A stretch of 64,000 nucleotides of DNA, from positions 1 to 64,000 of the IMG/VR virus record IMGVR_UViG_3300042865_000182, one strand, 5' to 3'. Position 1 is the first letter of the stretch. Each line of letters starts with the position of its first letter. This DNA is from a virus. Made by a program: the position numbers and the translations under genes. The notes beneath the pieces were generated by a model. It ran no database searches and was not told the DNA's origin. It saw only the letters and a program-made list of their open reading frames with translations. This document shows positions 5,652-26,941 of this stretch, piece by piece.

Positions 5652-5709
5652 AAGTTTTAATTTTATTATTAATAATAGTAGTAAGCTGTATATATAAATA
5701 TAAGCTACC

Positions 5710-5874
5710 CTAAAAGGGTAACTCATATTCTTTTTCCATTTGTGAATCATGTTCATAGAACATGTTCATATAATCACAAATACATTTTTTAATAGTATCA
5801 TGTGAATTGGTTTCTTCATTGAAATTGATATCTATATCATATTCCATATTACATGTTGAACAAGTATTTTCCAT
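5710..5874 (-). CDS. Small Cys-containing acidic protein (54 aa)
   Basis: Start reassigned to MENTCSTC, 26 nt after the motif at 5900; CxxC...CxC; ends EYELPF. Confidence 0.65.
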   Translation of the reverse strand: MENTCSTCNMEYDIDINFNEETNSHDTIKKCICDYMNMFYEHDSQMEKEYELPF

Positions 5875-6240
5875 AGCTAAAAGATTTAATATTAATAATA
5901 GTATAGAGCTGTATATATACATGATGTTGCTGTGTTGCTTGCTAGATATATACTATGATGGTTGAGATATCTCAGGAAGCATTGGTTATATATAATTATA
6001 TTATTAATACATACATACTAACATAAGTACATAGCAGTATCATGCTATTACAAATATATTTACCACAGATAAAAAAATATTTTTACATCCTAAAAAGTTT
6101 TAAGTTGTATAAATTTCATGGGGGGTATCACCAATCCAGACTGAGCCCGGGGTCTGATTATATATACCCCACCACATTCTCTTGTATACCACATTCTACT
6201 ATATACAATACCACCACATTGCAATTCCAAAAAATGTTTA

Positions 6241-6323
6241 TATATTTGCAGAGTTAGATTATCTCATCTTTCAAATAAATTAAGTAAGACAGACCCTGGT
6301 ACTCATGCACCGGGGTTTTGTTT
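6241..6323 (+). ncRNA. Candidate sRNA unit (promoter, short transcript, terminator)
   Basis: TATATTTG (Bacteroidota -7 consensus TAnnTTTG) at 6241-6248; ACCCTGGT/ACCGGGGT hairpin plus T run; no ORF. Confidence 0.45.
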
Positions 6324-6337
6324 ATAATAGAAGCCCC

Positions 6338-6507
6338 CCTGTGGTGAGATAGCCATAGGCCAAGTTCCAGACAGCATACCGTAGGATCTGCTCACTACAC
6401 TGGACTTTTTGGATACTGGGAAAGCAGACTGAAGGTACCTAAGTTTGTATAACTAGTATCCGGCCCAGATAAGTTTCTCTGATCAAGAATTACTGTCTGG
6501 GTTTTTT
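6338..6507 (+). ncRNA. Candidate structured ncRNA (four consecutive hairpins, last is terminator-like)
   Basis: GC-richer than surroundings; stems CCTGTGGT/GCCATAGG, TCCAG/CTGGA, GGATACTGG/CTAGTATCC, CCCAGATA/TGTCTGGG plus T run. Confidence 0.5.
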
Positions 6508-6598
6508 ATGTATCTTAGTAGTAAGTTATGTATACTTGGTCAGCGGACTAAGGGGAAGTCCCGGATGTTTATTCCGGGATTTTTTTTATATTTGCTTT

Positions 6599-7042
6599 AT
6601 GAAAAAGTTTGACATGGGTAAATATGTTCTGTTAGCAGGAGATAATGCTACAGAGATCTTTGATTATTATAAGGTAGATGAAATGCATGGTCTTAACAGA
6701 GCTGATGCCCAAGCAGAAGAGATTGATAAGAAAACTGGTAATGGAGTTTACATTTATGGGTGGACTAACTATGACCCGGCTGATAAGAAGCTGACTGCAA
6801 AGGCTCCACATAAACCATTCTTGTTTCTTAACTTAAGTACATTTAAGAAGTACTCCCTTACAGAAAAAGCCACTGCTGTTATGCATGAGACTATGCACAT
6901 GAGTATCTTATTGAACAACTGGAAGATTACTGACAAAGAAGAAGAAGCTATAGGCTTTGCTGAAGATGAAGCTAACAAGATTATAGAGAAGTTAGGCTTT
7001 AATAAAAAGGAAGAACCAAAAAAAGGTTTCTTTAAAAAGTAA
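6599..7042 (+). CDS. Putative zinc metalloprotease-like protein (HExxH)
   Basis: HETMH motif with downstream Glu (EEEA); ATG at 6599 directly after TATATTTG (6587-6594), so probably leaderless. Confidence 0.6.
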   Translation: MKKFDMGKYVLLAGDNATEIFDYYKVDEMHGLNRADAQAEEIDKKTGNGVYIYGWTNYDPADKKLTAKAPHKPFLFLNLSTFKKYSLTEKATAVMHETMHMSILLNNWKITDKEEEAIGFAEDEANKIIEKLGFNKKEEPKKGFFKK

Positions 7043-7674
7043 TGGCATATATAGAACATAATTTTTTTCCACTGAAGGTATTTGTTAGGAATGAGTACAT
7101 GTATCAGCACACTAAAGGTCAAGGAGAATTCACCCCGGGGGTTATCATTTCAGTTAGGTGTATGCCGGGACAAGCTGCACTGTTCCAGGTACTGTTAGAC
7201 AATGGAGTACTTAGAGATAAGCTACCATCCCATGCATTGCTTACTGAACCAAAGCTACCGGATCCAGATCTGCCGTTTCATTATCTACAGATATGGAATT
7301 GTTTCAGTTATAACTTTACTCTACTACATCTGTCATATCTTTATGATACTCCAGTGGAAGTTTATATGAAAGATAAAAAGTTCTATAAAGGAAACTACTA
7401 TGCTACTATTAACTGGGGTACTAATGACTTTAACACAGACTTGTCTCTGGCTGAAGATGCACTAGAGCATAAGAGTCACCATATTATATTACTTGATAAT
7501 GGGCAGATAGCATTACAACCTAACAACCGGATTAAGTGGTCTGAACCTAGCTTTGTAACTAAACCTTTTCCTGAGAGACCTGACTATTTAGTCAACAAGG
7601 ATTACTACAATTGTGAGGGTTATGAAAAATGGAATACAGAAGATTCTGATAGAATGTTTTATGATAATGAATAA
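7042..7674 (+). CDS. Hypothetical phage protein (210 aa)
   Basis: ORF track; coupled to the upstream stop (TAATG). Confidence 0.8.
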   Translation: MAYIEHNFFPLKVFVRNEYMYQHTKGQGEFTPGVIISVRCMPGQAALFQVLLDNGVLRDKLPSHALLTEPKLPDPDLPFHYLQIWNCFSYNFTLLHLSYLYDTPVEVYMKDKKFYKGNYYATINWGTNDFNTDLSLAEDALEHKSHHIILLDNGQIALQPNNRIKWSEPSFVTKPFPERPDYLVNKDYYNCEGYEKWNTEDSDRMFYDNE

Positions 7675-7680
7675 TTTTAT

Positions 7681-7752
7681 TATATTTGCTGTGTTCATAT
7701 TAAGTTTGATTGATTAATAAGCTAGAAGCCCTGGAAATTTTCCGGGGTTTTT
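7681..7752 (+). ncRNA. Candidate sRNA unit (promoter, short transcript, terminator)
   Basis: TATATTTG at 7681-7688; GCCCTGGAA/TTCCGGGGT hairpin plus T run; no ORF. Confidence 0.45.
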
Positions 7753-7794
7753 AGTTTAAACAAAAAAAATTTATATATTTGTCATCAACTAAGT

Positions 7795-8109
7795 TTGTTA
7801 TATGAGATGACTCACCTACAGAAAAAGTTATGGTTACTTGTTGCAGAAAAAGCAGACTCTAACTTGGAGGCTAGGATGGTGTATGATGAACTATTAAAAA
7901 AACTAAACATGTCAGAAGATAAAGTTATTCTGTCCATGATGGAAACAGAAAATGGAATAGAAGTTCATATTAGTGAAAATGCTTATGAGAATCTTGCTGT
8001 CATAGGTTTAATAGAAAAGATTAAGCTGGATTTATTAACCCGGCCTGATCTACCAGTACATGACTTGAGAAAAAGAGATAAGAGTCAATCTCAAAAGTAT
8101 GATGCATAA
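7795..8109 (+). CDS. Hypothetical protein (start uncertain)
   Basis: ORF track; TATATTTG promoter at 7774-7781; several internal ATGs. Confidence 0.65.
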   Translation: MLYEMTHLQKKLWLLVAEKADSNLEARMVYDELLKKLNMSEDKVILSMMETENGIEVHISENAYENLAVIGLIEKIKLDLLTRPDLPVHDLRKRDKSQSQKYDA

Positions 8110-9184: not shown

Positions 9185-9208
9185 CCTATATACTCTCCAA
9201 ACGGAAAG

Positions 9209-9238
9209 ATCCTCAGTTTTTTAGCTGGGGATTTTTTT
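9209..9238 (+). terminator. Intrinsic terminator
   Basis: ATCCTCAG/CTGGGGAT stem plus T run. Confidence 0.65.
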
Positions 9239-9255
9239 ATATCAAAATTTTTTTG

Positions 9256-9275
9256 TATATTATAGTGTATATTTA
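9256..9275 (+). promoter_or_regulatory. Putative late promoter motif TATATTATA(A)GTRTATATTTAT
   Basis: Near-identical copies at 9256, 13724 and 32030, each just upstream of a structural or lysis operon. Confidence 0.55.
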
Positions 9276-15631: not shown

Positions 15632-15663
15632 AATCCAGGTACTTTGTATGCCTGGATTTTTTT
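15632..15663 (+). terminator. Intrinsic terminator
   Basis: AATCCAGGTA/TGCCTGGATT stem plus T run. Confidence 0.75.
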
Positions 15664-15702
15664 GTTTAAACATATCTAGTTTAAACTTTTATTGTATATT
15701 TG
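15664..15702 (+). promoter_or_regulatory. Host-type -7 promoter with two upstream GTTTAAAC palindromes
   Basis: GTTTAAAC at 15664 and 15679; TATATTTG at 15695-15702. Confidence 0.6.
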
Positions 15703-18465: not shown

Positions 18466-18980
18466 TGATAGTTAAGCTATTTGAAATACAAAATAATGTA
18501 GTAATACCAACTGAGCACTGTTATACCTTAAAGGCACTTAAAGATATTATGGATGATTATCCAGAAGATTACCTTAAGATATATCAGTATCTGTTCTACA
18601 TGACATGTCCTAACCCAGATATGAATCCATTCTTCTATACACCAGATATAGATAAAGAGAATTTAATCATGCAGCAGATAGAAGGTGAGTTCTCAACAGA
18701 AGATGATGCAGTATTTACTGCGCTTAAATTCTGTGAAAGAATGTATGAAACACCAACATCCAGAGCATATAAGGGTATTGCATCCATGTTAGATAGATTA
18801 GCAAGATATATGGAAGTAACTACTATCACTGCAGGTAGAGATGGTAATATAAACTCTCTCATTAGTGCAGCTAAAAACTATGAAGCCATTAGACAGTCTT
18901 TCAAAGGAGCCTATAAAGATCTTCAAGAAGAACAGCAAAGTAAAGTAAGAGGTGGACAAGGACTAGCATATGACATGTAA
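18465..18980 (+). CDS. Hypothetical protein, terminase small subunit candidate
   Basis: 171 aa, helical, coupled directly upstream of TerL; inferred from position. Confidence 0.5.
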   Translation: MIVKLFEIQNNVVIPTEHCYTLKALKDIMDDYPEDYLKIYQYLFYMTCPNPDMNPFFYTPDIDKENLIMQQIEGEFSTEDDAVFTALKFCERMYETPTSRAYKGIASMLDRLARYMEVTTITAGRDGNINSLISAAKNYEAIRQSFKGAYKDLQEEQQSKVRGGQGLAYDM

Positions 18981-21187
18981 TGAGTGAAATTTATCAAGAT
19001 ATACCAACCTATGACAACGGAAACTGGACAACCACAAGTTTTGAATCCAGAGAAGAGTTCAGCAACTTTATCTTTGGAGTATTTAAAGAACCAGGTAAGT
19101 ACAACTTCAATGAAACTACCAATAGAGTTTTCATATCTGAGTCACTTAAATTCAAAAAAGATGGAGTATATACTACAGCTCCATTCAAATCAAAAGACTA
19201 TATAGCTTATTGGGATGACCAGAAAGCTAAATGCCGCAAGGGTGTAATAGTTAAAGATAAAGATAACACATGGTTTGTAGCTAGAGAATACTACATGTGG
19301 TTAAACTTCTTACCCATCTTTGACAAAGAGATACAACAGTTTGGCTTTGCTAAAATCAGGGATGCTCAGTATCATATGGCTTTATATGAGTTGTTAGCAG
19401 AACTTAATTACAAACACTCAGCTATCTTAAAGAAAAGGCAGATAGCTTCTTCTTACTATCATATGGGCAAGTTTATAAATCAGCAATGGTTTGAGGCCGG
19501 AGTTACTCTCAAGATGGGTGCAAGTCTTAAGGACTATATTAATGAAAAAGGATCCTGGAAGTTCTTACAAGAATATGCTGCATTCTTAAATGAACACACA
19601 GCATGGTATAGACCTATGTCACCAGACAAAGTAATGATGTGGCAACAGAAGATTGAAGTAAGAAAAGGAGATAGAAAAACAGAAGTTGGTCTTAAAGGTA
19701 CTATACAAGGTATGTCATTTGAGAAAGATCCAACAAATGGTGTAGGGGGTCCAGTTAAATACTTCTTTCATGAGGAGGCTGGGATTGCTCCTAAGATGGA
19801 TCAGACATATGAGTACATGCGCCCGGCCATGAGATCTGGGCTTATTACTACAGGAATGTTTATAGCTGCAGGATCTGTGGGTGATCTATCACAGTGTAAT
19901 CCACTTAGAGATATGATCCTTAATCCATTATCTAAAGATGTATATGCAGTAGAAACTAATCTTATAGATGATAAAGGCACTCAAGGTATGTCAGGTTTAT
20001 TTATTCCTGAACAGTGGTCTATGCCTCCTCATATAGATACTTATGGTAATTCACTTGTAGAAGATGCATTAAAAGCATTAGATGAGCAGTTTGATAAATG
20101 GAAGAAAGAACTAAACCCGGAAGACTACCAGCTTAGGATATCTCAGCATCCAAGAAACATTAAAGAAGCATTTGATCATAGAACAGTATCTGTATTTCCT
20201 ACCCACTTACTTGCAGCACAAGAAAGAAGAATAGAAGAAAAAACCTATGGATATGAGTTCTTAGATATTAGCACAGATGAGAATGGTAAACCTGTAGTTA
20301 TGCCTACAAATAAAAGACCTATATCTGAGTTCCCAATATCTAAAAAGACAGAAGATAAAACAGGAGTATTGGTAGTATGGGAAAGACCAGTTAAAGATGC
20401 AGAGTTTGCTAAAACATATTATGCATCTATTGACCCGGTGTCTGAAGGAAAGACAACTACCTCAGAATCACTATGTTCAATATATGTAATGAAAGCTCCA
20501 ATTCAAGTAACTAAGGTTACTGGTGTTGAAACAGAGACATATATAGAACAGGGTAAAATAGTGGCTGCATGGTGTGGTAGATTTGATGATATAAATAAAA
20601 CTCATCAGAAGCTAGAGTTAATTATAGAATGGTACAATGCCTGGACACTTATAGAGAATAACATATCTCTATTTATTCAGTACATGATATCCAGAAAAAA
20701 ACAAAAGTACCTAGTACCTAAAGGTCAGATTATGTTTCTAAAAGATCTTGGATCCAATGCTAATGTATTTCAGGAGTATGGTTGGAAAAATACAGGTACT
20801 CTTTTTAAGGCACACCTTCTTAGTTATGCTATAGAATATTGTAAAGAGGAAATAGATGTAGAAACAAAACCAGATGGTACAATAGTAAGAACAAAATATG
20901 GTATAGAAAGACTTCCTGATCCTATGCTAATTAAAGAAATGAGAGAATATGCAGATGGAGTCAATGTGGATAGACTGGTTTCCTTTGCTGCTCTTGTTGC
21001 ATTTATGAGAATACAGGAAGCAAATAAAGGTTATCCAAAAATAACAATCATGGATGATGTGGCCAAAAACTTGCAAAAGTCAGAAAATTTGTTTAAATTA
21101 AATAGAAGTCCATTTAGACACATGGGGGGTTCTGGTAATTCATTAAGCAAAGGAATTACAAGATCTCCTTTTAAAAATATTAAATAG
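18980..21187 (+). CDS. terL: Terminase large subunit
   Basis: Walker-A-like ILKKRQIASSY, Walker B FFHEEAG, nuclease YASIDPV...LIENN...NVDRLVS; 735 aa, upstream of portal. Confidence 0.9.
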   Translation: MSEIYQDIPTYDNGNWTTTSFESREEFSNFIFGVFKEPGKYNFNETTNRVFISESLKFKKDGVYTTAPFKSKDYIAYWDDQKAKCRKGVIVKDKDNTWFVAREYYMWLNFLPIFDKEIQQFGFAKIRDAQYHMALYELLAELNYKHSAILKKRQIASSYYHMGKFINQQWFEAGVTLKMGASLKDYINEKGSWKFLQEYAAFLNEHTAWYRPMSPDKVMMWQQKIEVRKGDRKTEVGLKGTIQGMSFEKDPTNGVGGPVKYFFHEEAGIAPKMDQTYEYMRPAMRSGLITTGMFIAAGSVGDLSQCNPLRDMILNPLSKDVYAVETNLIDDKGTQGMSGLFIPEQWSMPPHIDTYGNSLVEDALKALDEQFDKWKKELNPEDYQLRISQHPRNIKEAFDHRTVSVFPTHLLAAQERRIEEKTYGYEFLDISTDENGKPVVMPTNKRPISEFPISKKTEDKTGVLVVWERPVKDAEFAKTYYASIDPVSEGKTTTSESLCSIYVMKAPIQVTKVTGVETETYIEQGKIVAAWCGRFDDINKTHQKLELIIEWYNAWTLIENNISLFIQYMISRKKQKYLVPKGQIMFLKDLGSNANVFQEYGWKNTGTLFKAHLLSYAIEYCKEEIDVETKPDGTIVRTKYGIERLPDPMLIKEMREYADGVNVDRLVSFAALVAFMRIQEANKGYPKITIMDDVAKNLQKSENLFKLNRSPFRHMGGSGNSLSKGITRSPFKNIK

Positions 21188-21192
21188 GTACT

Positions 21193-23943
21193 ATGAAGAT
21201 AATAAATGCCTTACAAGCAAAAGGAGGAGCAACAACAGAAAATAACAGAATGGGTAGCATCACCCAACCGTTACAGTTTATTCCTAAAAAAGAAAAAGAT
21301 GAAAAATGGGCAGCTTGGAATTTAGATTGGTTAGAGTGGCAAGGACTAAAACAAATCCGGAGAAATGCCAGAAGACTAATGAAAAATTACAAACTGGCAA
21401 AAGGTATCATAGATAAGTCTGATTATATAGTAGAAGAGAATAATGATTATAGAGATATTGTAGAAATATTAACTAAAGAAGATATCTCAGCATTAGAGTT
21501 AAAATTTTATCCAATTATACCAAATGTTATTAATGTTTTAGTAGCTGAGTTTGCAAAAAGATCTACTAAACTTACATATAGAGCAGTAGATGAATTTTCA
21601 TATAATGAATTGCTTGAGCAAAAAAGACAAATGGTTGAGGATGTTCTAATTCAAGATGCAAAACTAAAAGTTGCATCAGCTCTCATGGATAAAGGGCTTC
21701 AACCAGATTCAGAAGAGTTTCAACAAGAAACTTCTCCAGAAAAACTTAAATCACTTCCTGAGATTGAAATGTATTTTAGAAAAGATTACAGATCAATGGT
21801 AGAAGAATGGGCAACACATCAACATAAAGTTGATGTTGAAAGATTTAGAATGGATGAGCTTGAAGAAAGAGGTTTTAGAGATATGCTCATTACAGACCGT
21901 GAGTTCTGGCATTTCCGTATGATGGAGGATGATTATGAAGTAGAACTCTGGAATCCAGCTATTTCATTCTATCACAAGTCTCCAGATGCAAGATATATAT
22001 CACAAGCAAACTGGGCAGGTAAAACAGATATGATGACACCAGCCGATGTTATTGATAGATATGGATATTTAATGGATGAAGAACAACTTAGAGCTTTAGA
22101 AGCAGTTTATCCAATTAGATCTGCCGGTTATACTATTGGTGGTTTGCAAAATGATGGTTCTTTCTATGATGGAACCAAGTCTCATGATTGGAATACCAAT
22201 ATGCCATCTCTTGCATACAGACAATATACTACTGCTATGGGTGGTGCTGTATTAGAAGGCGGAGATATTATAACACAAATACTTTCTGAAGGAGAAGATT
22301 ATTATGATCAAGGTACTGCATATTTATTAAGAGTATCTACCATATATTGGAAGTCACAAAGGAAAATTGGACATTTAATTAATATAGATGATAATGGACA
22401 AGTAGAGATGGATATTGTAGATGAAGACTATGTATCTTCTACAAAACCAATTTATGACACTAGATTATTAAAAAATAAAACCAAGGATAACTTAGTTTAT
22501 GGAGAACATATAGATTGGATATGGATTAATGAAGTATGGGGTGGTGTAAAAATAGGACCAAATATTCCATCTTTCTGGGGTATGAATAATCCTGGAGGAT
22601 TTACTCCTATGTATATTGGTGTTGATAAACCTAAAATAGGACCATTAAGATTTCAATTTAAAGGTGACAATTCATTATATGGTTGCAAACTTCCTGTGGA
22701 GGGCGCAGTTTTTTCAGACAGAAATACCAAATCCACAGCACTTATTGACTTAATGAAGCCATACCAGATTGGTTATAATATAGTTAATAATCAGATAGCA
22801 GATATCTTAGTAGATGAGCTTGGTACTATAATCATGCTTGACCAGAACACTTTACCAAGACACTCATTAGGAGAAGATTGGGGTAAGGGTAACTATGCTA
22901 AGGCTTATGTAGCAATGAAAAATTTCCAGATGTTACCTCTAGATACATCTATTACAAATACTGAGAATGCATTAAACTTCCAACATTTCCAAAAATTAGA
23001 TCTATCTCAGACAGAGAGATTAATGTCTAGGATACAGTTAGCTAATCACTTTAAGCAACAAGCTTATGAAGTAATAGGTGTAACTCCACAAAGAATGGGA
23101 CAGCAGATTGCACAAATGACAGCAACAGGTATTGAACAAGCGGCAGCTGCATCATATGCTCAAACTGAAATGTTCTTTGTTCAACACTGTGATTACTTAA
23201 TGCCAAGAGTTCATCAAATGCGTACAGATCTAGCTCAGTATTATCATGCAACAAAACCATCAACTAGATTAAGTTATATAACTACTGCTGATGAAAAGGT
23301 AAACTTTGAAATAAATGGTACTGACCTTTTAATGAGGGATCTTAATATCTTCTGTAGTACAACTGCTAACCATAGAGCTGTTTTAGAGCAACTTAAACAA
23401 ATGGCTATGCAGAATAATACTACAGGAGCTAGTATCTATGATCTTGGTAAAATTGTTCAATCTGATTCTATTGCAGAACTTAACAATGCTCTTAAAGCTT
23501 CTGAACAAAAACAAGAACAACAAAAACAACAAGAACAACAACAACAACAACAAATGCAACAAGAACAACTTCAAAAACAACAAGAGATTGAGAAAATGAA
23601 GCTTGATGCTACTGCTGCAGAAAAAGAAAAAGATAGACAGACTGAGATACTTATAGCAGAAATTAGAGCTGCTGGTTATGGTTCAATGGCTGATGTTAAT
23701 AAAAATGAAATCTCTGACTATCAAGATGCTATGAGAGATATTAGACAAAGTGATCAATACATGGCTCAAAATCAACTTCAAAGAGATAAAGAAGCTACTA
23801 GAACTATGTTAGATAGAGATAAGAATGCAATTGAAAGAGAGAAGTTACAAGTACAAAGAGAGATAGCAGATAAGCAGTTACAAGTAGCTAGAGAGAATAA
23901 AAATAAATATGATAAAGGCGGTTCAGTAAAAAATAAAAAGTAG
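21193..23943 (+). CDS. Portal protein (crAss-like)
   Basis: 916 aa after TerL; YPIIPNVINVLVAE, WIWINEVWGGVKIG, CKLP, IGVTPQRMGQ motifs; long coiled-coil C-terminus. Confidence 0.85.
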   Translation: MKIINALQAKGGATTENNRMGSITQPLQFIPKKEKDEKWAAWNLDWLEWQGLKQIRRNARRLMKNYKLAKGIIDKSDYIVEENNDYRDIVEILTKEDISALELKFYPIIPNVINVLVAEFAKRSTKLTYRAVDEFSYNELLEQKRQMVEDVLIQDAKLKVASALMDKGLQPDSEEFQQETSPEKLKSLPEIEMYFRKDYRSMVEEWATHQHKVDVERFRMDELEERGFRDMLITDREFWHFRMMEDDYEVELWNPAISFYHKSPDARYISQANWAGKTDMMTPADVIDRYGYLMDEEQLRALEAVYPIRSAGYTIGGLQNDGSFYDGTKSHDWNTNMPSLAYRQYTTAMGGAVLEGGDIITQILSEGEDYYDQGTAYLLRVSTIYWKSQRKIGHLINIDDNGQVEMDIVDEDYVSSTKPIYDTRLLKNKTKDNLVYGEHIDWIWINEVWGGVKIGPNIPSFWGMNNPGGFTPMYIGVDKPKIGPLRFQFKGDNSLYGCKLPVEGAVFSDRNTKSTALIDLMKPYQIGYNIVNNQIADILVDELGTIIMLDQNTLPRHSLGEDWGKGNYAKAYVAMKNFQMLPLDTSITNTENALNFQHFQKLDLSQTERLMSRIQLANHFKQQAYEVIGVTPQRMGQQIAQMTATGIEQAAAASYAQTEMFFVQHCDYLMPRVHQMRTDLAQYYHATKPSTRLSYITTADEKVNFEINGTDLLMRDLNIFCSTTANHRAVLEQLKQMAMQNNTTGASIYDLGKIVQSDSIAELNNALKASEQKQEQQKQQEQQQQQQMQQEQLQKQQEIEKMKLDATAAEKEKDRQTEILIAEIRAAGYGSMADVNKNEISDYQDAMRDIRQSDQYMAQNQLQRDKEATRTMLDRDKNAIEREKLQVQREIADKQLQVARENKNKYDKGGSVKNKK
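23503..23586 (+). repeat. CAA-rich poly-Gln tract in the portal gene
   Basis: EQKQEQQKQQEQQQQQQMQQEQLQKQQE. Confidence 0.8.
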
Positions 23944-25324: not shown

Positions 25325-26941
25325 ATGGCAACTCCAGTTTTAAACAATGGTATATTTCTACGAGATACCGCGTACAATGCTACGTCACATGTAGACTCTT
25401 ACCACTTGGTTAACATGTTGAAGGATGCAGAACCAATGGACTTAGGTCCAGTAGACCTATGGGCTATGGCTCAGAAGGTGGAAATGCCTCTTTACCAAAT
25501 GTCTAGCTTTGGTGGTAAAAATGTAATTATGGTTGATAATGCTCGTGGTGAGTATAAGTGGCAGACTCCAGTGTCTGTAGACTTACCTTACATCCTTGAG
25601 GATATTGAACCAGAAAACAACTTTAAAGGTATTGAAGGAACAACCTTCCGTATCAAGCTTAACAGACGTGAGTTTGGACATGGTGATATCATCACTTATG
25701 ACAAATATAACGGAGTTGAGATGTACATTACTGCTGAAGATATCCTTCCATTAGGAGATGGATACATCTATACAGTACAGTTGGTAAACAATGACAACTT
25801 TAAATACTTGGATAACAAGTACTTGGCTAATGGTACTAAAGTTTTCCGTAAAGGTTCTGCCCGTGGAGAATATGGTGAAAGATTTTCAGATATCACAACA
25901 AGAACAGGATTCCGTGAATTCTATAACTTTGTTGGTGGTGCTGAAGCTCACGTACATTATTCTATCTCTAGCCGTGCTGACTTGATGATCAAAGGTGGTA
26001 TGAATGCAGATGGTACAGTTCCTGTAACTGAGATCTGGAGAACATTTGACAAATCTGTTGATCCATCAATCACTTCTTTGGAAGACATGGTTAAAGTTCT
26101 TGGAAAAGATAAAGTTAAAAAAGCATTTGATAACGGAGACTTATCACGTACTTTCTTAACTACAATGGAAGCTGCTCACTTAACTAAAATTGCTTCTGAT
26201 ATTGAGACTTACTTAATGTGGGGACAAGGAGGTAGAGTGCGTCAAGATGGTCCAGATGATCTAAGATTATCTGTGGGTCTTTGGAAGCAGTTGGATAACT
26301 CATTCAAAAGAGTATACAACAAAAATAACTTTACATTAGATTTATTCCGTGGAGAGATCTACAACTTCTTCAATGGTAAAGTTGAGTTCCAAGGTCCAGA
26401 TCCTAAGCGTTCACTAGTAGTACAAACTGGTATGGGTGGTATGAGAATGGTAAATGAAGCTATTAAGCGTGAGGCTGTATCTTCAGGTTTACTTATCCAG
26501 GCTGCTGATATTGGTGCTATCACTGGTAAAGGTATGGACTTGAACTTTGGATTTGCTTACACTTCATATGTAATTCCATTCTTGGCAAATGTTAAGTTTG
26601 TTCTTAACCCAGCATTTGACAATGTTCATACAAATGATATTGAGAACCCAATCATTGATGGTTTCCCATTATCTTCTTACTCATTCATTATCTTTGATAT
26701 TACAGATAACACTAATGACAACATCTACTTGTTGAAGTTATCTTGGGATAATCAATTGAAGTGGTGGTATCAAAATGGTACTATGGATTATATGGGCCGT
26801 TCTCAAGGATTCCAGTCTTCTGGACAATTCAACGGATACCGTGTGATGATGTCTCAAACAATGCCAGCTATCTGGGTTAAGGATCCAACTAAAGTCCTTA
26901 AGATTGTTATGAGAAACCCAATCACTGGTGGATCATTCTAA
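25325..26941 (+). CDS. Major capsid protein
   Basis: 538 aa; position; distinct codon usage (frequent CGT, TTC, AAC) suggesting high expression; strong terminator follows. Confidence 0.85.
   Translation: MATPVLNNGIFLRDTAYNATSHVDSYHLVNMLKDAEPMDLGPVDLWAMAQKVEMPLYQMSSFGGKNVIMVDNARGEYKWQTPVSVDLPYILEDIEPENNFKGIEGTTFRIKLNRREFGHGDIITYDKYNGVEMYITAEDILPLGDGYIYTVQLVNNDNFKYLDNKYLANGTKVFRKGSARGEYGERFSDITTRTGFREFYNFVGGAEAHVHYSISSRADLMIKGGMNADGTVPVTEIWRTFDKSVDPSITSLEDMVKVLGKDKVKKAFDNGDLSRTFLTTMEAAHLTKIASDIETYLMWGQGGRVRQDGPDDLRLSVGLWKQLDNSFKRVYNKNNFTLDLFRGEIYNFFNGKVEFQGPDPKRSLVVQTGMGGMRMVNEAIKREAVSSGLLIQAADIGAITGKGMDLNFGFAYTSYVIPFLANVKFVLNPAFDNVHTNDIENPIIDGFPLSSYSFIIFDITDNTNDNIYLLKLSWDNQLKWWYQNGTMDYMGRSQGFQSSGQFNGYRVMMSQTMPAIWVKDPTKVLKIVMRNPITGGSF

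What the first reader, a model, noticed from the sequence alone, without database searches (positions are those of the whole stretch)
6241..7752. Two minimal sRNA units whose bodies look antisense to translation-start regions
Seen: at 6241 and 7681 a TATATTTG promoter is followed about 45 nt later by related terminators (CCCTGG..CCGGGGTTTT), with no ORF between. The bodies contain CTCATCTTTCAAATAAATTAA and GTTCATATTAAGTTTGATTGATTAAT. Their reverse complements (TTAATTTATTTGAAAG-ATG-AG; ATTAATCAATCAAACTTAAT-ATG-AAC) read like Bacteroidota A-rich leaders plus a start codon. I found no exact target in this window. Inference: phage-encoded trans-antisense RNAs that silence host (defence?) or phage genes.
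Basis: partly seen in the sequence, partly recalled or inferred. Interest (0 to 1): 0.7.

Follow-up and report, generated by a model that had tools for sequence, protein, structure and literature searches.

The report
Gene-less small-RNA cassettes in lake phage
Two tiny promoter-to-terminator units with no gene inside are real and conserved as swappable modules in a family of lake-water crAss-like phages; they probably each make a 60-70-base RNA, but no target of these RNAs could be found.

Summary
TATATTTG boxes at 6241 and 7681 are each followed 40-45 nt later by the only two CCCTGG..CCGGGG terminators in the 107-kb genome, with no ORF between.

The window is the left part of a distant crAss-like phage from lake water. 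The units lie at the head of its structural-gene arm, in an array that also holds a 175-nt four-hairpin RNA with strong covariation.

In relatives the same promoters drive the next gene directly. Here [short body + terminator + new promoter copy] is intercalated. Unit 2 belongs to a family of 47 distinct variants found behind at least five different upstream genes and behind other RNA units. Its promoter box (44/47), a GTTCAT at the predicted 5' end (36/47) and the hairpin (97.6% paired, G-U pairs only on the + strand) are kept, while the middle drifts. Unit 1's body is replaced wholesale between close relatives.

No target was found. Complementarity to the phage's own genes and start regions is no better than for shuffled bodies. 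The host is unknown and no RNA data exist. A UCAU word is over-represented in the bodies, which is weak support for an anti-AUG reading.

Best reading (about 0.4): small-RNA gene cassettes with FopS-like architecture. Main rival: terminator-promoter junction modules (PeSL-like). This scan has noted similar cassettes in other Bacteroidota phages.

The parts
6219..6248 (+). Promoter of unit 1: TTG (6219-6221), 19-nt spacer, -7 box TATATTTG (6241-6248)
   Evidence: The same 'aattccaaaaaa..TATATTTG' promoter drives the 147-aa gene directly in L023, L025 and L057.
6253..6293 (+). Unit 1 body: predicted transcript start at G6253, about 41 nt, AT-rich, contains CUCAUC (6263-6268)
   Evidence: Start inferred from the fixed TATATTTG-N4/5-ATG spacing of the neighbouring leaderless gene. 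Weak 4-bp 5' hairpin. Body replaced by unrelated sequence in relatives.
6294..6324 (+). Unit 1 intrinsic terminator: CCCTGG-10 nt-CCGGGG + UUUUGUUU
   Evidence: Stem family CCCYGG..CYGGGG conserved in relatives.
6334..6508 (+). Four-hairpin structured RNA (D element) ending in terminator 6462-6503 + U6; second member of the array
   Evidence: 18 variants aligned (A2). RNAalifold gives 41 pairs, 16 with compensatory double changes. It occupies the unit-2 slot in L013 and L020.
6509..6589 (+). E module: short hairpin plus terminator 6557-6581 + U8; in L016, L067 and L147 it is a promoter-body-terminator unit of its own, but the window copy has no -7 box
6587..6601 (+). Second copy of the promoter (TATATTTG 6587-6594), fused to the preceding U-tract, 4 nt before the ATG (6599) of the 147-aa gene; leaderless arrangement
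   Evidence: Spacing of 4-5 nt in all relatives.
7681..7688 (+). -7 box of unit 2, 6 nt after the stop codon (7672-7674) of the 210-aa gene
   Evidence: TAnnTTTG kept in 44 of 47 family variants. It drives the next gene directly in L057 and L065.
7693..7718 (+). Unit 2 single-stranded 5' tail: GUUCAU (7693-7698) at the predicted 5' end, then AT-rich UUGAUUGAUU
   Evidence: GTTCAT in 36 of 47 variants, invariant while neighbouring positions are 30-81% conserved. Unpaired in the centroid fold.
7719..7757 (+). Unit 2 extended terminator: A-tract AAGCUAGAAG + CCCUGG-7 nt-CCGGGG + UUUUUAGUUU
   Evidence: Fold -24 kcal/mol, z -4.75. 97.6% of cells paired over 47 variants, with U-G and G-U pairs that would be mismatches on the - strand.
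7754..7781 (+). GTTTAAAC, A-run and second promoter TATATTTG (7774-7781) for the next gene (ATG 7807); with the terminator it forms a compact terminator-promoter junction
   Evidence: This junction is the most conserved part in all contexts, though partly because it was the search pattern.

Best explanation
Units 1 and 2 are small non-coding RNA genes packaged like the phage's protein-gene cassettes. Shown: each has a host-type (Bacteroidota TAnnTTTG) promoter box, a short body without an ORF and an intrinsic terminator, and the terminator is fused to the promoter of the next gene. Shown: the cassettes sit between two copies of the same promoter, and relatives either lack them or carry them in other slots. 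Inferred: host RNA polymerase starts 5 nt after the box (G6253, G7693) and stops at the U-tracts, giving RNAs of about 70 nt and 60 nt. Each RNA would have a 25-40-nt mostly unpaired 5' part and a long 3' hairpin, the same build as the 65-70-nt FopS sRNAs of Bacteroides. Inferred, and the weakest step: the 5' part acts in trans by base pairing, with the conserved 5'-GUUCAU of unit 2 or the UCAU-containing loops of unit-1-type bodies meeting AUGA-type start regions. Because nothing in the phage matches, the targets would be host transcripts.
For: 1. The anatomy is correct and unique in the genome.
2. Unit 2 belongs to a family of 47 distinct variants found behind at least five different upstream genes, and also behind a D-type or a unit-1-type terminator, with several different downstream genes.
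3. Selection pattern in that family: -7 box kept in 44/47 and GTTCAT in 36/47, against a 30-81% conserved spacer and a 37-78% conserved body.
4. The hairpin is 97.6% paired, with wobble pairs only possible on the + strand RNA.
5. The tail is unpaired and the hairpin z-score is -4.75.
6. The same array holds a structured RNA with 16 covarying pairs, which has its own promoter in some relatives. So promoter-to-terminator RNA genes do exist at this locus.
7. TCAT is enriched and ATGA depleted in the bodies.
8. FopS sRNAs are about 65-70 nt, use a canonical sigma-ABfr promoter, have a single-stranded 5' seed plus terminator, and block start regions (PMC11697453).
9. A cultured crAss-like phage makes abundant non-coding RNAs from its early intergenic regions (bioRxiv 10.1101/2020.03.07.982082).
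Against: 1. No transcript evidence of any kind exists.
2. No target: the best duplexes and helices against the phage's own genome equal those of shuffled bodies (p 0.32 and 0.44).
3. Unit 1's body is not conserved; close relatives carry unrelated bodies at the same place.
4. Unit 2's middle has tandem TTGAT slippage and indels, and its identity (0.54-0.82) is about that of four-fold degenerate sites in the flanking gene (0.50-0.90).
5. The most conserved stretch is the terminator-promoter junction, as a cis-acting module would predict.
6. The TCAT statistic rests on related clusters.
7. A Bacteroidota host is inferred only from the promoter motif and one MAG label, while the best portal match is a Leptolyngbya phage.
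Confidence: 0.4

Rival explanations
1. The functional element is the terminator-promoter junction (hairpin, U-tract, GTTTAAAC, A-run, TATATTTG). It insulates neighbouring transcription units and serves as homology for modular recombination, like the PeSLs of T4-type phages. The upstream promoter copy and the short body are what recombination between promoter repeats leaves behind, and the short RNA is a by-product without a role.
For: The units always lie between two copies of the same promoter. Relatives have the simple promoter-gene arrangement: L023, L025 and L057 for unit 1; L057 and L065 for unit 2. Slots are alternatively filled by small protein genes, the D element or unit 2. Bodies are hypervariable or rich in indels. 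The junction is the best conserved part. Similar fused terminator-promoter junctions stand at 6557-6594 and 15632-15702. PeSLs are described as composite promoter-terminator motifs associated with genome plasticity (PMC4122927; PMC2839356).
Against: The upstream -7 box, which this model does not need, is kept in 44 of 47 diverged variants, and GTTCAT is kept while the flanking bases drift. Unit 2 travels as a whole unit through many contexts. Conservation of the junction is inflated because the loci were fetched with a junction pattern.
Confidence: 0.3
2. The units are promoter-proximal terminators that work as a switch. RNA polymerase starting at the upstream promoter stops after about 60 nt unless a phage factor makes it terminator-resistant, as with lambda PR'-tR' (6S RNA) and protein Q. 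This would time the structural-gene arm, which carries further terminators at 9208, 15632, 26959, 33678 and 39039.
For: The units sit at the head of the arm that encodes virion proteins, terminase, portal and the major head protein. Strong terminators punctuate that arm. In L017, L019, L021 and L022 a promoter is followed by 23 nt and a terminator, with no second promoter before the 147-aa gene. GTTCAT spans the predicted start site, where pause or loading signals would lie.
Against: In the window and in every unit-2 variant a second full promoter follows the terminator directly, so downstream genes do not depend on read-through. T-to-P junctions at 15632/15695 and 39039/39079 suggest separate transcription units. 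The PHROG scans of about 28 of the window's proteins returned no antiterminator family, but the scan was not exhaustive.
Confidence: 0.1
3. The units are scars: promoter, 5' leader and 3' end of small protein genes whose coding part was deleted.
For: Relatives carry small protein genes in the same slots, for example L015, L032 and L040 after the 210-aa gene. An earlier follow-up on another phage could not exclude this for a similar cassette (e1-5656016).
Against: The unit-2 family keeps the same short length (bodies mostly 37-54 nt, up to 69) and the same 5' hexamer in 47 diverged variants and many contexts, which independent deletions would not give. The bodies are T-rich, unlike the A/C-rich leaders of neighbouring genes.
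Confidence: 0.07
4. One reading: the RNAs are antisense to start regions of the phage's own genes.
For: An earlier follow-up on another genome, whose unit shares 5 of 27 short words with unit 2, reported a unit family that mirrors the start of one of that phage's early genes (e1-6019852).
Against: Tested here and not found. Duplex energies against 111 start regions are no better than for shuffled bodies. The longest helices genome-wide are 15-16 with 3-7 G-U pairs, against 14-22 for shuffles. Gapped blastn-short gives a best of 25.7 and 23.8 bits against a shuffle median of 23.8. ATGAAC/ATGAAT sites in relatives' loci give a maximum of 20/24 among 474 sites, mean 13.6, sd 2.1.
Confidence: 0.05

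Closest known systems
FopS / GibS small RNAs of Bacteroides thetaiotaomicron (PMC11697453)
   Same: Size of about 60-70 nt. A sigma-ABfr-type TAnnTTTG promoter. [quoted passage not shown] Multicopy or paralogous organisation. The proposed action is at translation start regions.
   Different: No sequence or covariance-model similarity: no FopS hit even at E<=10 (the only GibS hit is a spurious E=9.7 match at 5864-5916, outside both units), and nothing at gathering score. These units are phage-borne, not chromosomal. No target, no RbpB binding and no expression data are known. Unit 1 bodies are hypervariable, whereas FopS seeds are conserved.
PeSLs (promoter-early stem-loops) of T4-type phages (PMC2839356, PMC4122927)
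   Same: A composite of a terminator-like stem-loop and an early-type promoter in intergenic positions. It flanks variable small genes and marks the borders of insertions, deletions and replacements between close relatives.
   Different: A different phage lineage and a different promoter type. Here an additional upstream promoter and a short conserved transcribed body (GTTCAT...) travel with the junction, making a complete gene-less transcription unit. Recombination intermediates were not examined.
Lambda PR'-tR' unit (6S RNA) controlled by antiterminator Q (from general knowledge, not checked in a paper here)
   Same: A promoter followed closely by a terminator with no ORF, at the head of the late or structural genes, giving a short constitutive RNA.
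   Different: A second promoter follows each terminator here. No Q-like protein was identified. The units occur in several slots and in tandem.
Abundant non-coding RNAs from the early intergenic regions of crAss-like phage phi14:2 (bioRxiv 10.1101/2020.03.07.982082)
   Same: A crAss-like phage of a Flavobacteriia host, with non-coding transcription from gene-free stretches near the early genes and of unknown function.
   Different: Those are long RNAs from a gene-free region of about 1.7 kb. That region has only one terminator-like hairpin on the + strand and no enrichment of TAnnTTTG. There is no sequence relation.

Membership tests
FopS/GibS-type Bacteroidota sRNA | Match to the Rfam covariance models (GibS RF04182; FopS family) | tested here: not met
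   No family at gathering score in the window. At E<=10 in 5700-7900 there were only terminator-driven chance hits, plus a GibS hit at 5864-5916 with E 9.7, outside the units.
FopS/GibS-type Bacteroidota sRNA | Canonical sigma-ABfr promoter (TAnnTTTG, about 5 nt before the start) | tested here: met
   TATATTTG at 6241 and 7681; kept in 44/47 unit-2 variants. Motif only; promoter activity was not tested.
FopS/GibS-type Bacteroidota sRNA | [quoted passage not shown] | tested here: met
   Predicted lengths of about 70 and 60 nt. Folds show an unpaired or weakly paired 5' part and a strong 3' hairpin with a U-tract.
FopS/GibS-type Bacteroidota sRNA | [quoted passage not shown] | tested here: inconclusive
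   No phage target above background. Host unknown, so host targets were not tested. TCAT enrichment is only suggestive.
FopS/GibS-type Bacteroidota sRNA | Association with the RNA-binding protein RbpB | not testable with these tools
   Needs CLIP or EMSA in the (unknown) host.
PeSL-like terminator-promoter cassette | Stem-loop terminator directly followed by an early-type promoter in intergenic DNA | tested here: met
   7727-7752 followed by 7774-7781; 6557-6589 overlapping 6587-6594; 15632-15658 followed by 15695-15702.
PeSL-like terminator-promoter cassette | Marks the borders of gene insertions, deletions and replacements between close relatives | tested here: met
   Relatives differ exactly by what lies between promoter copies and terminators.
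PeSL-like terminator-promoter cassette | Membership of the T4-type phage lineage, or sequence relation to its PeSL motifs | tested here: not met
   The phage is crAss-like by its portal, terminase and head proteins. The promoter is TAnnTTTG, not a T4 early promoter.
PeSL-like terminator-promoter cassette | Recombination between motifs (circular intermediates) | not testable with these tools
   Would need PCR or long reads from infected cells.
Lambda-type promoter-proximal terminator under Q antitermination | Downstream genes depend on read-through (no promoter after the terminator) | tested here: not met
   Full TATATTTG boxes at 6587 and 7774 follow the terminators. The exception is the L017-type relatives.
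Lambda-type promoter-proximal terminator under Q antitermination | A phage-encoded antiterminator | tested here: inconclusive
   None among the roughly 28 proteins scanned against PHROGs and 10 against Pfam. Most small ORFs were not scanned.
cis-antisense RNA | A gene on the opposite strand overlapping the unit | tested here: not met
   No conserved - strand ORF: the frame from ATGAAC runs 2-124 aa in relatives and its upstream context differs. Unit 1 lies in a gene-free divergent region.

The most novel reading that the evidence does not exclude
The constant promoter and constant terminator form a scaffold into which a 35-45-nt hypervariable 'targeting' insert is swapped by recombination at the flanking repeats. 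Each lineage of these lake crAss-like phages would then carry its own set of short antisense RNAs. Their exposed UCAU loops or 5' ends would seed on AUGA start codons of host mRNAs, possibly leaderless ones. The result would be an RNA-based, exchangeable host-takeover or counter-defence repertoire.
Probability: 0.12. Interest if true: 0.75.

Novelty: new member of a known kind. Interest (0 to 1): 0.42.

Why it matters
crAss-like phages are among the most abundant phages of Bacteroidota, and almost nothing is known about their RNA-level regulation. One cultured member makes abundant non-coding RNAs of unknown role.

If these units are small RNA genes, they give a defined, very compact and widely conserved family: 47 variants of unit 2 alone, plus a 175-nt structured RNA beside it. 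With such a family, phage riboregulation in a phylum without Hfq or ProQ could be tested.

If instead they are only terminator-promoter junctions, they show that the PeSL style of modular gene shuffling, known from T4-type phages, also operates in crAss-like phages. Either way the finding explains how the head of the structural arm is rebuilt between close relatives.

Tried and rejected
- Rfam at gathering score on the whole window, and at E<=10 on 5700-7900: nothing except terminator-driven chance matches.
- ARAGORN: no tRNA or tmRNA.
- Public sequencing runs: no RNA holder listed. All 24 holders are DNA runs, almost all labelled lake-water or freshwater metagenomes, so expression could not be examined and read laying was not used.
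- blastn against phage records: no close relative.
- Target searches within the phage, all at background: RNAduplex on 111 start regions, ungapped helices with G-U pairs over both strands, gapped blastn-short, and ATGAAC/ATGAAT-anchored pairing in relatives' loci.
- A protein on the - strand starting at ATGAAC: rejected, because the frame is not conserved.
- GTTCAT as part of the promoter geometry only: not settled. Spacing to the box is 4-5 nt in 34 of 36 variants but 6 and 16 nt in two.
- An exact search for unit 1's body in IMG/VR found nothing. The metagenome scan found one identical copy and three units with other bodies.
- Genome-collection scan for host clues: only two MAG contigs, labelled Flavobacteriales and Bacteriovoracaceae, neither carrying the units.
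- The phi14:2 non-coding region has no comparable units.
- The conserved G-rich element at 6118-6175 gave no consensus RNA structure.
- My first clustering of bodies at 60% identity lumped unrelated AT-rich bodies and was discarded in favour of 72%.
- GC skew has its minimum at about 6 kb, but this coincides with the switch of coding strand, so it does not show an origin.
Full report
WHAT THE WINDOW IS

The window is the first 64 kb of a single 107,394-bp contig with 32.8% G+C. Genes run leftward from 5922 and rightward from 6599.

The rightward arm encodes virion proteins, an endolysin, the large terminase (18980-21187), the portal (21193-23943), the major head protein (25325-26941) and several giant virion proteins. 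The portal is 22-33% identical to portals of crAss-like phages of Bacteroides, Flavobacterium and Cellulophaga; the best single hit is a Leptolyngbya phage. The DNA occurs in runs almost all labelled lake-water or freshwater metagenomes. This is therefore a distant crAss-like phage of lake water. A Bacteroidota host is suggested only by the promoter word TAnnTTTG and by one related contig filed in a Flavobacteriales MAG.

THE OBSERVATION

- Unit 1: TATATTTG 6241-6248, a 45-nt body, CCCTGG(6294)-10 nt-CCGGGG(6315), then TTTT.
- Unit 2: TATATTTG 7681-7688, which starts 6 nt after the stop codon of a 210-aa gene. Then a 40-nt body, CCCTGG(7729)-7 nt-CCGGGG(7747), then TTTTT.
- Neither body holds an ORF.

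The promoter word alone is only about two-fold enriched (16 against 8.8 expected). But these are the only two terminators with this stem in all 107 kb, and the only two strong terminators with a TATATTTG 38-43 nt upstream. Both hairpins fold far better than shuffled sequence.

THE UNITS ARE PART OF A LARGER NON-CODING ARRAY

Between the divergent arms (5923-6598) the + strand carries, in order:

- a conserved G-rich element (6118-6175);
- the promoter at 6241 and unit 1;
- a 175-nt element (6334-6508) made of four hairpins and ending in a terminator;
- a further hairpin-plus-terminator module (6509-6589);
- a second TATATTTG (6587) fused to that terminator's U-tract, only 4 nt before the ATG of the first gene.

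The 175-nt element has 18 distinct variants in relatives. RNAalifold gives it 41 pairs, of which 16 show compensatory double changes. It has its own promoter in several relatives. In L013 and L020 it sits behind the 210-aa gene, exactly where the window has unit 2. So promoter-to-terminator RNA genes exist at this locus, and they are interchangeable between slots.

HOW THE UNITS RELATE TO THE NEIGHBOURING GENES

A search with the 210-aa protein found 444 relatives in IMG/VR, of which 80 loci were kept.

- In L023, L025 and L057 the promoter that stands at 6241 in the window (same 'aattccaaaaaa...TATATTTG' context) drives the 147-aa gene directly, with TATATTTG-N4-ATG.
- In L057 and L065 the promoter that follows the 210-aa gene drives the next gene directly.
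- In the window, [body + terminator + new promoter copy] is intercalated at both places.

The spacing TATATTTG-N4/5-ATG is constant for the 147-aa gene in all relatives. This suggests a leaderless mRNA that starts at the fifth base after the box. By the same rule the units would start at G6253 and G7693. These start sites are inferred.

UNIT 2 IS A CONSERVED, AUTONOMOUS MODULE

A pattern search for its terminator-junction word fetched about 115 more loci. Together they give 47 distinct unit-2 variants.

The variants stand behind at least five different upstream genes: the 210-aa gene, the 147-aa gene, a gene ending IDPSIGK, a gene ending LTFGRDIK, and another in L125. They also stand behind a D-type terminator (L090, L193) and behind a unit-1-type terminator in tandem (L131). 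They precede several different downstream genes.

Conservation across the 47 variants:

- The -7 box is TAnnTTTG in 44.
- GTTCAT is present in 36 and TCAT in 43.
- The four bases between box and hexamer are only 30-81% conserved, and the next 14 bases 37-78%.
- The hairpin is paired in 97.6% of cells. It changes through U-G to U-A and G-U to G-C or A-U, pairs that would be A-C mismatches on the other strand, so the structure is read on the + strand.
- 'GCTAGAAG', which looks conserved, pairs with the U-tract 'TTTTTAGT' and is part of an 18-bp extended hairpin.

The free part of the RNA is therefore the 25-30-nt 5' tail. The middle of that tail contains TTGAT repeats that expand and contract. 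Its identity to the window copy (0.54-0.82) is no higher overall than that of four-fold degenerate sites in the flanking gene (0.50-0.90). The - strand frame from ATGAAC is not conserved.

UNIT 1 HAS A CONSERVED FRAME BUT A REPLACEABLE BODY

At the same position, with the same promoter context and the same terminator family, relatives carry bodies that cannot be aligned with each other. I count roughly ten kinds.

The window's own version was found once more, in a metagenome contig that is identical over the unit (L199). A contig with about 90% identical flanks has a different body (L197). CTCATC is therefore not a conserved feature.

Many of these bodies form a small 5' hairpin. In several the loop or the 5' end carries UCAU.

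TARGET TESTS

- Duplex energies of both bodies against 111 start regions of the phage were no better than for shuffled bodies (p 0.32 and 0.44).
- The longest helices anywhere in the genome were 15-16 with 3-7 G-U pairs, against 14-22 for shuffles.
- Gapped blastn-short gave a best of 25.7 and 23.8 bits, against a shuffle median of 23.8.
- Pairing anchored on ATGAAC/ATGAAT sites in the 5-15 kb held for relatives gave a maximum of 20/24 among 474 sites, with mean 13.6 and sd 2.1.

So the phage does not carry a target above AT-rich background. Host targets remain untested.

One statistic leans the other way. TCAT occurs in 18 of 27 body clusters against 5.1 in shuffles, and ATGA in 3 against 7.4. 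The clusters are related, and by my count about 5 of 10 independent families carry TCAT.

WHAT IT MOST LIKELY IS

Shown: two complete, gene-less transcription-unit anatomies. They are conserved as modules, read on the + strand, and placed in an array with a proven structured RNA.

Inferred: they yield RNAs of about 70 and 60 nt.

The build is a canonical Bacteroidota promoter, a single-stranded 5' part with the conserved word at the very 5' end, and a terminator hairpin. That is the build of the FopS sRNAs, which block start regions of susC mRNAs (PMC11697453). There is no sequence or model similarity to them.

I therefore read the units as small-RNA gene cassettes (confidence 0.4). Trans pairing to host start regions is the least secure step.

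THE RIVALS

- The main rival (0.3) is that only the terminator-promoter junction matters, as insulator and recombination homology like the PeSLs of T4-type phages (PMC2839356, PMC4122927), and that the short RNA is a by-product. Against it stand the retained upstream promoter and the 5' hexamer.
- A lambda-PR'-tR'-like antitermination switch (0.1) fits the position at the head of the structural arm and the L017-type relatives that lack a second promoter. It is weakened by the full promoter that follows each terminator here.
- A deletion scar (0.07) does not explain 47 variants of constant build.

RELATION TO EARLIER NOTES OF THIS SCAN

Similar gene-less promoter-terminator cassettes were already followed up in other Bacteroidota phages. 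One of them shares short words with unit 2 and was reported to mirror a start region of its own phage. That claim does not transfer to this genome.

Noticed in passing
window 6334-6508 (+): A four-hairpin, roughly 175-nt RNA ending in a terminator. It has 18 distinct variants in relatives, and 16 of its 41 predicted pairs show compensatory double changes. The loops ACCGUAAGAUC, GGGAAAG and GUAUAAC, and the terminator loop, are conserved. No Rfam match. It has its own promoter in some relatives and moves between slots.
   Followed up: partly
window 6118-6175: A conserved G-rich tripartite element (GGGGGGTAYC .. CCGGGG .. ACCCCAYC), always 50-70 nt upstream of the right-arm promoter in 40 variants. 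GGGGGT and GGG are invariant, and several variants hold a GGGGTACCCC palindrome. No consensus RNA structure, so it is more likely a DNA site (regulator binding or origin).
   Followed up: partly
window 6509-6594: A hairpin-plus-terminator module whose U-tract overlaps the promoter of the first rightward gene. In L016, L067 and L147 the same module has its own TATATTTG and forms a third kind of gene-less unit. The window copy lacks that box.
   Followed up: partly
window 6587-6601 and relatives: The 147-aa gene starts 4-5 nt after TATATTTG in the window and in every relative, which points to a leaderless mRNA. It also gives a ruler for transcript starts at this promoter type.
   Followed up: partly
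L017, L019, L021, L022 (upstream of the 147-aa gene homologue): A promoter, 23 nt, a GGTCTGG..CCAGACC terminator and then the ATG with no second promoter. This is an attenuator-like leader in one sub-lineage.
   Followed up: no
window 9236-9262 and many relatives: A second promoter-like word, TTTGTATATTAT (of extended -10 type), stands before several small genes, for example 'TTGTATATTAGTATATG' in relatives. There may be two promoter classes in this phage group.
   Followed up: no
whole contig (G000), about 6 kb and about 84 kb: Cumulative GC and AT skew have their minimum at about 6 kb and maximum at about 84 kb. These are the two points where gene orientation switches, so an origin and terminus, or mere transcription bias, cannot be told apart.
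   Followed up: partly
window 7710-7719 and unit-2 variants: The middle of the unit-2 body is a short tandem repeat (TTGAT/TGATT, 2-4 copies) whose copy number varies between relatives. This looks like slippage rather than a conserved seed.
   Followed up: no
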